DNA of 25,537 nt from a virus (lineage: Duplodnaviria; Heunggongvirae; Uroviricota; Caudoviricetes). A program made the position numbers. The stretch lies in the IMG/VR virus record IMGVR_UViG_2698536454_000004; one strand, 5' to 3'. Below, piece after piece: positions 21,001-24,000 of the stretch; positions within the stretch are counted from its first letter, which is position 1; each line of letters starts with the position of its first letter.

Positions 21001-24000
21001 CTGGCTTTGAAGTACGGGTCTTCGCGTTTTTCTGTGTACGTGCTGACGGACGGCGATAAGCGCAGGGAAAGCTCATCCCATTTTTCCCGCAGCTTCGACG
21101 GGCTGAGCACGTTACGGCACCAGAACGGATCGCGGCTGACGCGGCTGTACATCTCGCAGATTTGTTTGTGAGTACGACCATCCTGCACACACATCAGGCG
21201 AATTTCGTTTGCCCAGGCTGTCCAGTTCGGTTCTTTGGGACGAACCACCTCGCCGTCACATTCGGCAGCCTGCTCGTACAGGGCGATGATTTTTTTCCAG
21301 AGCCACTGTGCGCAGGTCAAATCATCCTGCGTCCCCCACTGGCGCTTTTTAGGGCTGAATACAACCGCATCAGGATGGCGAGTTAAAAAATCCTGTTCAG
21401 CCGTCTGCGTGTCCGGTTGCGAAGCGTCCGGACGAGAAGGTTTTTTATCTGACGGATCATGTTTTGATTTTACTGACGGATCCCCGCCAGATTCTGACGG
21501 GTGAAAACCCGCTTTTTTGCCAGATTTCGACGCATCAAATTTTGACGGGTCAGATTTTGATGCGTCAGATTTTGACGGGTCAGAATCTGACAGTTGAGAA
21601 AATGCCGCTGCCTGAAGCTTCGCAACGTTAAGCTGATAAACATTCGACGCATTGCGGTTACCCTGGCGACGCGCCTTACGCGTTAACCAGCCTTCTGCTT
21701 CCAGCCGTGCGATAGCCGTTCTGACGGTACTCATCCCCGCGCCAATCTGACGGGCAATGGTTTCAATTGATGGCCAGCACACACCTTCGTCATTACTGAA
21801 ATCAGCCAGGCGGGCCATAATTGCCACGCTGGATAACTTCATGCCTGATGCAGCGCAACCATCCCATACATAGCCGGTTAATTTAGTGCTCATGACCGAC
21901 CTCTATTTCCCTGAATTTACGACGAAACTGTTCGAGCGGACTGAAGCATTCATGCTCATAACCTTCGCGGAGGTAGATAACCCGTTGTGTTTCCGGCTCC
22001 CAACGAATGACTCTGACGGGCACTCCGTAGTGATCTTTGAACCAGCGGTTAACTTGTCGCAAAGGACTGTCTCCTTCTGCCGGTTGAAATCACCCACAGC
22101 CCACTCTGCAAAGCTGTGGGTTACAATTTCCCTGTCACCTGGTACATTCACTGCATAGCAATATTCCACCTTCGCTTTTCCACCCGGAACAGGAAGCGCA
22201 ATCAGTTGCGAGCGACGGTAGTGTGTTGTTAAACTGTTCATGCGTTAGTTTCTCCACAGTCACGACACGCCACGGCGCCCGGAGCTGCACACTCGCGGGC
22301 GTCATTACTTTCTGAAATGCAAAAAATTTTGTAGACCAGTGCTGCATGCTCCTGCAGCTTCGAAATTGAGAGGTAGAGCTCGTCATTAATTGCTGTCTTC
22401 TCATGCGGTTCCACTACACCGTCTTCGATTGCTGAACGAATCTGTTTTGAATAACTGCCGATCTGTTCAATGACTTCCAGCAGACGCTGGTTAATATCGG
22501 CGTTGTCCACATCCTCGACGTCAGGAAGAGACACAAAGACGCCATTTGCAGACTGCGCCACAGCATCAGCAATGAAGTGAGTTCCACCAGCACGTTGCAA
22601 AATCATTGCCCATCCCAGCGGGAAAATCTGATCGCCATCGGCACGAAGGCGGTTAAATAATGCGTTCTCTGTTACATCCAGCCAGTCAGCAGCTTCAGCG
22701 TAACCCCCCGGCAACGCTGCGATAGTTTTTCTGACAGCTTTCACGTACCACTCAGGCTGTTTGTCTACTTTCCAGTGATGCTTACCCACGGTTAGCCTCA
22801 TCGTTCTGTGGTTTCTGTTAATCGATTTATCCATTAGATTTTTCATAAAGCTCAGGTTTAAATGGCAACCGTCCGCAAGTTCTATATGCAGCTTCTGCTG
22901 CACGTCCTTTTGGAATTAACTGGCCCGGACGGTTTCGCCACTGATAAACGGCTTCAGTTGTTATGCCGAAAAAAGCAGCAACTTTCTCAATACTGCCGAA
23001 GTAGCTTTCGATATCGTCAGTTGTCATACGCCCTCCAAACTAAGTTTTATTAGATGCTAATTACAAATCTATCTTTGGTCAATAAAAACTAAGATTACTT
23101 AGTAATTAAAGAAATGGTGCTCCTATGGAAACGGTTGGTCAGCGTATAAAAGCTCTGAGAAGAGTTACCAGAACGTCCCAGAAAGAATTGGGTAAATTTT
23201 GTGGAGTAAGCGACGTTGCTGTGGGGTACTGGGAGAAAGACATCAATACCCCTGGTGGGGAGGCACTTTCGAAATTAGCGAAGTTCTTCAATACGTCAAT
23301 AGATTACATTCTTTATGGTGCTGAGTTTGAAGGCAAACTCGTCACAAACATGCGCAGAGTTCCTGTAATATCGTGGGTTCAGGCTGGGCAGTTTACTGAG
23401 TGCAGGGCAGCAGAAGTGTTTAGTGAAGTGGACAAGTGGGTAGATACATCATTAAAGATTGGTGATAACTCATTTGCATTAGAGGTTAAAGGTGACTCCA
23501 TGACTAACCCTAATGGCCTCCCAACAATACCAGAAGGCGCAACAGTGATTGTAGATCCAGATGCAGAACCTCGTCATGGAAAAATAGTCATCGCTCGACT
23601 TGATGGAACAAACGAAGCTACAGTAAAAAAATTAGTCATCGATGGCCCTCAAAAGTTTTTAGTGCCATTAAATCCTCGGTATCCCAACATCCCTATCAAT
23701 GGTAATTGCCTTATCATTGGTGTAGTCAAAGGAGTTCAATACGAACTCTAAGACCTCTCTTCTCTAACTAAGGCACCGAACTAAGAAAAGTTTGGTGTTT
23801 TCTCTTGCCATAATAACTAAGTTAAGTTAGATTTTATGTCAAAGATAACGAACAGGCAGGACGCCCACGAAGTAGCCGCCTGGGGCATATGAAGTCCAGG
23901 ATGATTCGTTAGCAACAAAAAAGCGCCCTACAGGACGCTTAGCTCTTTAACAATCTGGTCCCCATCAACAAGTAACTGATAACTTGAGGAGATGTGAAAT

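What the first reader, a model, noticed from the sequence alone, without database searches (positions are those of the whole stretch)
21446..21597. Iteron-type origin embedded in the O-like initiator gene
At least five contiguous 15-bp direct repeats (consensus GATTTTGACGGGTCA, each with TGAC/GTCA inverted arms) plus degenerate upstream copies lie inside the coding sequence, where they encode a DPSKS/DASKS peptide repeat. A moderately AT-rich stretch follows in the direction of O transcription. This matches the lambda arrangement of ori iterons within O, but with a different repeat unit.
Basis: partly seen in the sequence, partly recalled or inferred. Interest (0 to 1): 0.4.

Follow-up and report, generated by a model that had tools for sequence, protein, structure and literature searches.

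The report
Replication origin inside prophage initiator gene
A common E. coli/Shigella prophage carries, inside the gene for its lambda-O-like replication initiator, a cluster of short palindromic DNA repeats followed by an easily melted stretch; it is very probably the phage's replication origin, an ordinary lambda-style arrangement with a repeat sequence that I did not find described.

Summary
The repeats are real. Six copies of a 13-bp palindrome-like motif (GTCARAATCTGAC on the gene strand) lie at window 21486-21591. Five are head to tail at a 15-bp pitch; about one match is expected by chance in the whole window. They lie in the linker-coding part of a 313-aa O-like initiator gene (20952-21893, minus strand) of an SfII/SfIV/Kati-type lambdoid prophage.

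In 37 non-identical relatives from many Enterobacterales the array is kept, with 3-10 tandem units. Its 11-nt core is fixed down to the codon: Ser is TCA at one position and TCT at the other, and Lys is AAA and never AAG. Third codon positions of the adjacent DNA-binding domain are near saturation. So the constraint is on the DNA, not on the DPSKS peptide.

Initiators with other N-terminal domains (mEp460_4F5, SfV, Pseudomonas prophages) carry different repeats at the same place, often at 17 or 22-24 bp spacing, out of frame. The C-terminal domain is homologous to lambda O. The least stable 40-mer of the gene (70% AT) follows the repeats, as in lambda.

This is a new member of a known kind, present in about 39% of complete E. 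coli genomes. Interest is low to moderate.

The parts
20952..21893 (-). O-like replication initiator gene (313 aa)
   Evidence: ORF list. PHROG 391 'replication initiation O-like' at 7.9e-136. 100% identical to Escherichia phage Kati 'primosomal protein' and 99.3% to Shigella phage SfII.
21609..21893 (-). Coding region of the N-terminal winged-helix DNA-binding domain (about aa 1-95)
   Evidence: Pfam HTH_36 at aa 23-70 (4e-11), with weaker GntR, MarR and DnaD_N hits. The low-confidence AF2 model shows four helices plus a two-strand wing over aa 7-98. Helix STVRTAI and wing RRxGNRNASNxY are nearly invariant in 37 relatives.
21519..21591 (-). Iteron array: five 13-bp palindrome-like units (GTCARAATCTGAC) at a 15-bp pitch, starting at 21519, 21534, 21549, 21564 and 21579. 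They encode DPSKS/DASKS.
   Evidence: The array is kept in 37 relatives with 3-10 tandem units, and the 11-nt core TCARAATCTGA is conserved.
21486..21498 (-). Isolated sixth iteron (GTCAGAATCTGGC), next to the AT-rich stretch
   Evidence: Found 33 or 48 nt downstream of the last recognisable array unit in 35 of the 38 sequences scanned. Part of the conserved block.
21465..21509 (-). 45-nt conserved core (gene strand GTTTTCACCCGTCAGAATCTGGCGGGGATCCGTCAGTAAAATCAA). It contains iteron 6, a GATC at 21479 and a GTCAG half-site.
   Evidence: At least 90% conserved at almost every position in 37 relatives, with third codon positions at 0.95-1.0. Third-position identity to the window in the N-terminal domain is only 0.38-0.59.
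21435..21474 (-). Moderately AT-rich, least stable stretch: the candidate unwinding element. It holds a second GATC (21455) and a GTCAG half-site.
   Evidence: 70% AT, dG -47.0 against a window mean of -55.9, top 2.3% of the window and the minimum of the gene. The corresponding 40 nt are 65-75% AT in all 37 relatives.
21063..21347 (-). Coding region of the C-terminal domain homologous to the lambda O C-terminal domain (aa 183-277)
   Evidence: BLASTP against lambda O gives 7e-26, with the strongest stretch WGTxxDLTxAxW ... WANxIRLM ... NVLSPxKLRxKW. Helical in the AF2 model over aa 189-279.
20955..20981 (-). C-terminal tail SQIPAGFRG, like the C-terminus of host DnaT (SQIPPGFRG)
   Evidence: MG1655 dnaT read from the record. 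Relatives show a longer match: RERDINAISRPDTTIPPGFRG against DnaT [20 protein letters not shown].

Best explanation
This is the replication origin of an SfII/SfIV/Kati-type lambdoid prophage, embedded in the linker-coding part of its own initiator gene, as in lambda.

Shown here:
- Six palindrome-like sites (core TCARAATCTGA) lie just after the region that encodes the initiator's winged-helix domain.
- A 45-nt block and a 40-bp AT-rich, low-stability stretch follow them, both conserved in relatives.
- The sites are under selection as DNA.
- Initiators with a different DNA-binding domain carry different repeats at this place.

Inferred:
- The initiator binds the sites through its N-terminal winged helix, probably as dimers, and builds an O-some-like complex on the array and the proximal site.
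- The complex melts the adjacent AT-rich stretch (21435-21474).
- The host DnaB helicase is loaded there. The phage encodes no P, DnaC or DnaB homologue, so recruitment must go through the lambda-O-like C-terminal domain and/or the DnaT-like tail, using host DnaC.
- Transcription from the early rightward promoter through the gene may help, as it does in lambda.
For: 1. Real, clustered repeats: 10 strand-matches against 1.02 expected, 0 of 100 shuffles as high; TRF score 100.

2. The host gene is an initiator: PHROG 391 at 8e-136, HTH_36 N-terminus, and a C-terminal domain homologous to lambda O at 7e-26.

3. Same relative position as lambda's annotated iterons.

4. DNA-level constraint in 37 non-identical relatives from Citrobacter, Enterobacter, Kosakonia, Kluyvera, Buttiauxella, Yersinia, Tatumella, Pantoea, Providencia, Erwinia and others:
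- In the repeat units the first Ser is TCA 188, TCG 11 and nothing else. The second Ser is TCT 161, TCC 17, TCG 3. Lys is AAA 121, AAG 0.
- Elsewhere in the same genes TCA is 16% and TCT 9% of Ser codons, and AAG is 39% of Lys codons.
- Without any motif filter, the whole linker has Lys AAA 162 against AAG 2.
- Third-position identity to the window in the N-terminal domain is only 0.38-0.59.
- The charge-reversing K/E change (AAA/GAA) is tolerated, and it keeps the motif.
- The 4-nt spacers vary while the cores do not.

5. Conserved 45-nt block and AT-rich stretch.

6. Repeats differ with the domain. mEp460_4F5 shares the C-terminal half at 96.6% DNA identity but has another N-terminal domain and GGTCAAARTGACC-like repeats at 23-24 bp spacing. 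SfV, Stx2a_1447 and cdtI have GTGCAGGAGATTCAC-like repeats at 21-24 bp. Pseudomonas, Pigmentiphaga, Achromobacter and Thorsellia relatives have 4-8 repeats at gene nt ~245-430 with 16-17 and 22-23 bp spacing, so they are read in different frames; shuffles give at most 2-3.

7. phiNP keeps the N-terminal domain and the repeats but has a different C-terminal domain and different neighbours.

8. The iteron consensus is the same in all 37 relatives, and the predicted recognition helix and wing are nearly invariant.

9. Published precedent: lambda O, P22 gp18 and phage L gp18 each have their own iterons inside the coding region (PMC8022706). Stx phages vary the in-frame iteron number, 6 against 4 (PMC7466680).
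Against: - There is no experimental evidence for binding, unwinding or origin activity in this phage type. I found none in the papers searched; the SfIV genome paper mentions no origin.
- The AT-rich stretch is only 70% AT, against 77.5% in lambda.
- The 15-bp head-to-tail pitch is shorter than in lambda (20-24 bp) and in the family's other members (17-24 bp). Full occupancy by dimers may be sterically hard, and the binding register (TCAGA-A-TCTGA or TCTGA-N4-TCAGA) is undetermined.
- No helicase loader is encoded, so the helicase-loading step rests on inference alone.
- The repeats and the N-terminal domain are adjacent, so part of their co-inheritance would follow from linkage alone.
- The structure model has low confidence (mean pLDDT 52.9).
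Confidence: 0.8

Rival explanations
1. The repeats are only a slippage-generated, low-complexity peptide linker (DPSKS/DASKS) between two protein domains and have no function as DNA.
For: The 15-bp pitch is a multiple of three, so a real peptide repeat results. The copy number varies from 3 to 10 among relatives, as expected of slippage. The region is predicted to be unstructured.
Against: Codon choice is fixed position by position. The two Ser positions use different codons, TCA and TCT, and never exchange them. AAG is never used for Lys. The amino acid itself may change (K/E/N/D) while the DNA motif is kept. The same core is held across genera whose synonymous sites are near saturation. Homologues have equivalent repeats at 16-17 and 22-24 bp spacing that are read in different frames and give no peptide repeat.
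Confidence: 0.04
2. The repeats are binding sites of the initiator or another regulator, but they serve control (autoregulation, copy-number 'handcuffing' or transcription attenuation inside the gene) and not initiation. The origin lies elsewhere in the phage.
For: Iterons in plasmids also serve control functions (general knowledge; reviews listed). The AT-rich stretch is modest. No DnaA box or IHF site accompanies the repeats.
Against: No other repeat cluster was found in the 25.5-kb window: TRF gives only two trivial short arrays elsewhere, and the motif has one chance hit. The layout of repeats, conserved block and AT-rich stretch inside an O-type gene is that of lambda's proven origin. The AT-rich character is conserved in all 37 relatives.
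Confidence: 0.1
3. The DNA-level conservation reflects recent horizontal spread or gene conversion of this short segment, or binding of an unrelated host or phage protein (for example the neighbouring PerC-like or LexA-like proteins), and not the initiator.
For: Lambdoid phages are highly mosaic. Module junctions lie close by, at about 21415-21451 and in the last 76 nt of the gene.
Against: Conservation is position-specific: cores are fixed and spacers free, which is not the uniform identity expected of recent transfer. phiNP keeps the repeats with different neighbours, a Rha-family regulator upstream and methylases downstream, with no PerC-like or DUF4222 gene annotated beside it. The only thing shared is the N-terminal domain.
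Confidence: 0.05

Closest known systems
Bacteriophage lambda ori (four iterons plus an AT-rich region inside gene O; O-some)
   Same: The origin lies inside the initiator gene, in the part coding for the linker between the N-terminal DNA-binding domain and the C-terminal domain (lambda nt 349-433 of 900; here nt 303-408 of 942). The repeats have dyad symmetry. The least stable, AT-rich stretch lies immediately downstream. The C-terminal domains are homologous (7e-26).
   Different: The N-terminal domain here matches HTH_36, and no Phage_rep_O hit was returned. The repeat sequence is different. The pitch is 15 bp head to tail, against 20-24 bp. There are six sites, one of them separate and embedded in a 45-nt conserved block. 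No P gene or any helicase loader is present. The protein has a DnaT-like tail that lambda O lacks.
Stx-phage origins (933W, P27): six iterons in O
   Same: The iteron number varies among relatives by in-frame insertion, which lengthens the initiator's linker (PMC7466680). Here relatives have 3-10 tandem units.
   Different: Those are lambda-type iterons and lambda-type O and P proteins. Here the N-terminal domain and the repeat sequence are different.
P22 gene 18 and phage L gene 18 origins
   Same: The initiators are distantly related, each with its own repeats inside its coding region: about 20-bp repeats in P22 and six 11-bp repeats in L (PMC8022706).
   Different: Those phages encode a DnaB-type helicase (gp12) next to the initiator. 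This module encodes the initiator alone.
Sibling initiator types in the same prophage family (mEp460_4F5; SfV orf39 / Stx2a_1447 / cdtI)
   Same: Same gene position, the same C-terminal tail (and, in mEp460_4F5, the same C-terminal domain), repeats directly after the winged helix, and an AT-rich stretch before the module junction.
   Different: The N-terminal domains differ and so do the repeats: GGTCAAARTGACC at 23-24 bp and GTGCAGGAGATTCAC at 21-24 bp, out of frame, with no peptide repeat.
Iteron plasmids (for example pPS10 RepA, F RepE, R6K pi)
   Same: A winged-helix initiator, a cluster of direct repeats and an adjacent AT-rich unwinding element (general knowledge; reviews PMC4980987 and PMC5043065 listed).
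   Different: Plasmid iterons usually lie outside the rep gene at a spacing of about 22 bp, and the Rep proteins have two winged-helix domains. No homology to them was detected here beyond weak generic HTH hits.

Membership tests
Lambdoid 'ori inside O' iteron origin | A cluster of at least four direct repeats inside the initiator gene, between the regions coding for the DNA-binding and C-terminal domains | tested here: met
   Six sites at 21486-21591, gene nt 303-408 of 942.
Lambdoid 'ori inside O' iteron origin | Each repeat has internal dyad symmetry | tested here: met
   The core TCAGA-A-TCTGA is a 5-1-5 palindrome. The copy at 21579-21591 (+ strand) is the perfect palindrome GTCAGAATCTGAC.
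Lambdoid 'ori inside O' iteron origin | An AT-rich, easily melted region flanks the repeats on the downstream side | tested here: met
   21435-21474 is 70% AT, the least stable 40-mer of the gene and in the top 2.3% of the window. It is weaker than lambda's 77.5%. The feature is conserved in 37 relatives.
Lambdoid 'ori inside O' iteron origin | The repeats are specific to the initiator's DNA-binding domain (cognate pair) | tested here: met
   This rests on comparison only. Three N-terminal types in coliphages and further distant types each have their own repeats. Within this type, the helix, the wing and the core are all conserved. Direct binding was not tested.
Lambdoid 'ori inside O' iteron origin | The repeats are selected as DNA, independently of the encoded peptide | tested here: met
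   Codon and third-position analysis.
Lambdoid 'ori inside O' iteron origin | The initiator is homologous to lambda O | tested here: inconclusive
   The C-terminal domain is homologous (7e-26). The N-terminal domain matches HTH_36, and no lambda-type Phage_rep_O hit was returned.
Lambdoid 'ori inside O' iteron origin | A partner helicase loader (lambda P) or helicase is encoded next to the initiator | tested here: not met
   The genes between cI and Q are a Cro-like gene, a CII-like gene, an ORF without a Pfam match, a DUF4222 gene, the O-like gene, then PerC-like, Dam, LexA-like, RusA, KilA-N, DUF968/HNH and Q genes. The SfII annotation agrees. The first downstream genes of 10 relatives include no loader.
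Lambdoid 'ori inside O' iteron origin | The fragment supports initiator-dependent autonomous replication, and the initiator footprints on the repeats | not testable with these tools
   This needs cloning, footprinting or origin mapping.
Iteron-plasmid Rep/iteron origins | A Rep protein with tandem WH1-WH2 domains, and iterons outside the rep gene at about 22 bp | tested here: not met
   There is a single N-terminal winged helix with a lambda-O-like C-terminal domain. The repeats are inside the gene at a 15-bp pitch.

The most novel reading that the evidence does not exclude
The module may be an 'initiator-only' lambdoid replicon that plugs into the host replication-restart machinery instead of bringing its own helicase loader.

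- Most Enterobacterales members of the family end in a copy, up to about 20 aa long, of the C-terminus of host DnaT (RERDINAISRPDTTIPPGFRG against DnaT [20 protein letters not shown]).
- None encodes a P-, DnaC- or DnaB-like protein.
- The conserved origin core holds two GATC sites, and a phage adenine methylase is very often the next or next-but-one gene. That would allow firing to be gated by methylation.
- The 15-bp head-to-tail pitch would also imply an initiator-DNA assembly packed differently from lambda's O-some.
Probability: 0.15. Interest if true: 0.6.

Novelty: new member of a known kind. Interest (0 to 1): 0.3.

Why it matters
It gives a precise, testable origin for one of the commonest prophage replication modules of E. 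coli and Shigella. The module occurs in about 39% of complete E. coli genomes, in the serotype-converting phages SfII and SfIV, and as a remnant in K-12 CPS-53. The map names six sites, a 45-nt core and a 40-bp candidate unwinding stretch.

It is also a clean example of dual coding. A protein linker is forced to spell DPSKS because the DNA must spell the initiator's own binding site.

The wider survey shows that repeats directly after the winged helix are a general rule for HTH_36-type phage initiators, as far out as Pseudomonas and Burkholderiales. That could be used to annotate prophage origins automatically.

The concept itself is textbook lambda biology, so a specialist would not be surprised.

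Tried and rejected
- NCBIfam gave no informative family for the initiator.
- The PDB sequence search gave only weak MarR and PaaX winged-helix hits (E about 0.008) and no initiator structure.
- The AlphaFold2 model from a 23-sequence alignment had low confidence (mean pLDDT 52.9). I used it only for a coarse domain layout and ran no fold search.
- I looked for DnaA boxes and IHF sites near the repeats. None was convincing: one 1-mismatch DnaA-like site at 21293 and one 1-mismatch IHF-like site at 21457, both at background frequency.
- I asked whether plasmids use this module as their replicon. The hits were phage-sized circles made of phage genes, or very large records labelled as plasmids, so they say nothing about origin function.
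- I tested whether the DnaT-like tail goes with absence of a helicase loader. Neither tail-bearing nor tail-less relatives have a loader among the first downstream genes, so there is no contrast to exploit.
- The DnaT literature (2017 review, 2026 preprimosome structure) assigns no function to the extreme C-terminal peptide in the text I read.
- The 30-bp super-period (alternating CCG and GCA spacers) in the window is not kept in relatives, so I rejected it as a feature.
- A small hairpin, CGGGT-TTTC-ACCCG, in the spacer at about 21497-21510 is likewise not conserved.
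Full report
**1. What is in the sequence**

The finding lies inside a 313-aa ORF on the minus strand, window 20952-21893. Tandem Repeats Finder reports one array at 21521-21584, with period 15 (4.3 copies, 81% matches) and period 30 (88%). The repeat finder recovers the same register and weaker copies at 21450-21502.

On the gene strand the unit reads GTCARAATCTGAC followed by two bases. With up to two mismatches this 13-mer occurs at 21486, 21519, 21534, 21549, 21564 and 21579, and once elsewhere (7993). That is 10 strand-matches against 1.02 expected, and no shuffle of 100 reached 10. The array encodes SDSDPSKSDASKSDPSKFDASKSG.

**2. The gene and its setting**

The window is a lambdoid prophage of the SfII/SfIV/Kati type. 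The gene is 100% identical to Escherichia phage Kati and 99.2-99.3% identical to Shigella phages SfII and SfIV. There it is annotated 'primosomal protein', 'O protein family protein' or 'DNA replication protein O'.

The gene order, in the direction of early rightward transcription, is:
- a CI-like repressor on the opposite strand;
- Cro-like and CII-like genes;
- an ORF without a Pfam match (21903-22241);
- a DUF4222 gene;
- this gene;
- PerC-like, Dam, LexA-like, RusA, KilA-N, DUF968/HNH and Q genes.

The protein matches PHROG 391 'replication initiation O-like' over its full length (7.9e-136). Pfam finds HTH_36 at aa 23-70. Its C-terminal part (aa ~183-277) is clearly homologous to the C-terminal domain of lambda O (BLASTP 7e-26).

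A low-confidence AlphaFold2 model (mean pLDDT 52.9) gives a coarse layout:
- a winged helix-turn-helix over aa 7-98;
- a largely unstructured, low-confidence segment over aa 102-185 (the model shows one short helix at 162-172);
- a helical domain over aa 189-279.

The repeats (aa 101-136) and the AT-rich stretch (about aa 140-153) therefore fall in the linker.

**3. Is the constraint on the DNA or on the peptide?**

A scan of one genome per species returned 37 non-identical relatives of the N-terminal domain plus linker. They come from Citrobacter, Enterobacter, Kosakonia, Kluyvera, Buttiauxella, Pseudescherichia, Mangrovibacter, Scandinavium, Rosenbergiella, Yersinia, Tatumella, Pantoea, Providencia, Erwinia and others, at 60-84% protein identity.

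All of them keep the array at the same place and at a 15-bp pitch, with 3 to 10 tandem units. In 35 of the 38 sequences scanned there is one further site 33 or 48 nt downstream. The conserved part of the unit is the 11-nt palindrome TCARAATCTGA; the four bases between cores vary freely.

Codon usage shows that the constraint is on the DNA:
- The first Ser of each unit is TCA 188 times, TCG 11 times and never anything else.
- The second Ser is TCT 161, TCC 17, TCG 3.
- Lys is AAA 121 times and AAG never.
- Elsewhere in the same genes TCA and TCT make up 16% and 9% of Ser codons, and AAG 39% of Lys codons.
- Counting every codon of the linker without any motif filter gives Lys AAA 162 against AAG 2, and Ser TCA 199, TCT 188, AGC 13, AGT 9.
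- In the adjacent N-terminal domain, third-position identity to the window is only 0.38-0.59, and conserved Ser columns use up to six codons.
- The amino acid itself may change (K to E, N or D) while the motif is kept. GAA makes the palindrome perfect.

A pure peptide repeat, general codon bias, or recent transfer of the whole segment would not give this position-specific pattern.

**4. A conserved core and an AT-rich stretch**

Downstream of the array, a 45-nt block is at least 90% conserved at almost every position in the 37 relatives. On the gene strand it reads GTTTTCACCCGTCAGAATCTGGCGGGGATCCGTCAGTAAAATCAA (window 21465-21509). Its third codon positions are conserved at 0.95-1.0. The block contains the sixth iteron, a GATC and a GTCAG half-site.

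The next 40 nt are 65-75% AT in every relative. In the window the least stable 40-mer of the whole gene is 21435-21474: 70% AT, dG -47.0 against a window mean of -55.9 (sd 4.0), top 2.3% of the window. In lambda the least stable 40-mer of O (77.5% AT) starts four bases after iteron 4. The order 'repeats, then AT-rich stretch, in the direction of transcription' is the same, but the AT bias here is weaker.

**5. Repeats differ with the DNA-binding domain**

- Phage mEp460_4F5 shares the C-terminal half of the gene at 96.6% DNA identity. It has an unrelated N-terminal domain and, at the same place, GGTCAAARTGACC-like repeats at 23-24 bp spacing.
- SfV orf39, Stx2a_1447 'replication protein O' and cdtI orf46 form a third N-terminal type, with GTGCAGGAGATTCAC-like repeats at 21-24 bp. 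cdtI has two more copies.
- Citrobacter phage phiNP keeps the N-terminal domain and the repeats (82.7% DNA identity) but has a different C-terminal domain and different neighbours.
- Among distant relatives of the N-terminal domain (about 30-40% identity), nearly all have 4-8 direct repeats at gene nt ~245-430. These come from Pseudomonas, Pigmentiphaga, Achromobacter, Allopusillimonas, Thorsellia, Phlomobacter, Thermomonas and others. The spacings are 16-17 and 22-23 bp, which are not multiples of three; shuffled genes give at most 2-3.

So repeats directly after the winged helix are a family rule, and elsewhere they produce no peptide repeat. Within the SfII type, the per-genome iteron consensus is the same in all 37 relatives. 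The predicted recognition helix (STVRTAI) and wing (RRxGNRNASNxY) are nearly invariant.

**6. Mechanism**

Shown: the anatomy, the DNA-level selection and the pairing of repeats with the domain.

Inferred, by analogy with lambda (PMC7466680; PMC8022706):
- The initiator binds the palindromic cores, probably as dimers, and forms a higher-order complex.
- The complex opens the AT-rich stretch at 21435-21474.
- The host DnaB helicase is loaded there.

Two points stay open. The first is the binding register: TCAGA-A-TCTGA (half-site centres 6 bp apart) or TCTGA-N4-TCAGA (9 bp apart). The second is whether all units of a 15-bp-pitch array can be occupied at once.

The helicase-loading step is the weakest link. 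No P-, DnaC- or DnaB-like gene lies between cI and Q, nor among the first downstream genes of ten relatives.

**7. Comparison with what is known, and novelty**

The architecture is that of the lambda origin. Published work already states that lambda O, P22 gp18 and L gp18 each bind different iterons inside their own genes, and that iteron number varies in frame among Stx phages.

I found no description of this particular repeat set. The SfIV genome paper, which covers the identical module, mentions no origin or repeats. My literature access is partial: older subscription-journal papers such as the SfV genome paper could not be found.

The module is very common. 2107 of 5426 complete E. coli genomes carry the N-terminal-plus-repeat segment, 1576 of them over at least 80% of its length. 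I therefore class it as a new member of a known kind. Its particular traits are the 15-bp in-frame pitch, the conserved 45-nt core, the absence of a loader and the DnaT-like tail.

**8. Verdict**

Confidence that this is the phage origin is about 0.8. Interest is 0.3: it is useful for annotation and a neat case of dual coding, but it would not surprise a specialist.

Noticed in passing
window 20955-20981 (last 9 codons of the O-like gene); relatives L005, L010, L013, L016, L020, L025, L042 and others: The initiator ends in SQIPAGFRG, almost the same as the C-terminus of host DnaT (SQIPPGFRG, read from MG1655 dnaT). In relatives the likeness extends to about 20 aa (RERDINAISRPDTTIPPGFRG against [20 protein letters not shown]). 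The tail occurs on at least three different C-terminal domain types. The DnaT texts I read assign no function to this peptide.
   Followed up: partly
window 21455 and 21479 (GATC); Dam gene 19808-20494: Two GATC sites lie in the conserved origin core and AT-rich stretch. They are kept in 29 of 37 relatives. A phage adenine methylase (Dam, or MT-A70 in a Yersinia relative) is often the next or next-but-one gene after the initiator. This might link origin firing to methylation, as at oriC and P1 oriR.
   Followed up: partly
window 19485-22903; SfII locus L001: No helicase or helicase loader (P, DnaC, DnaB) is encoded anywhere between the immunity region and Q. The O-like protein is the only recognisable replication protein.
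   Followed up: yes
L087 2552-3259 (E. coli MC4100, CPS-53 region, beside yfdN and yfdP); L039/L043 and L040/L041: K-12-type strains carry remnants of this gene. A pseudogene in CPS-53 lacks the N-terminus but keeps the repeats and the C-terminal half. In two other E. coli strains the first 79 codons are fused to an unrelated 455-aa ORF at a different chromosomal site.
   Followed up: partly
window 20952-21027 (last 76 nt of the gene): The 3' end of the gene is 96-97% identical in many phages whose initiators otherwise differ (SfV, mEp460, cdtI, Stx2a and Stx2c phages). A mosaic junction therefore lies inside the gene's 3' end. Other junctions lie at about 21415-21451, just downstream of the AT-rich stretch.
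   Followed up: partly
L022 (record titled Vagococcus sp. WN89Y) and L030 (742-bp contig titled Martelella alba): Records labelled as a Firmicute and an alphaproteobacterium carry this typical Enterobacterales prophage module at about 80% and 70% protein identity. Contamination or mis-binning is the likely cause.
   Followed up: no
proteins P0001-P0120: Many database homologues are 'partial' proteins of 120-280 aa that stop in or soon after the repeat region. Short-read assemblies probably often break at this widely shared prophage segment.
   Followed up: no
window 21883-21893 and 20952-20955: The gene overlaps its neighbours. The DUF4222 ORF (21883-22062) overlaps its start by 11 nt. The longest reading of the PerC-like ORF (20461-20955, GTG start) overlaps its stop by 4 nt. 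Both overlaps suggest translational coupling in the early operon.
   Followed up: no
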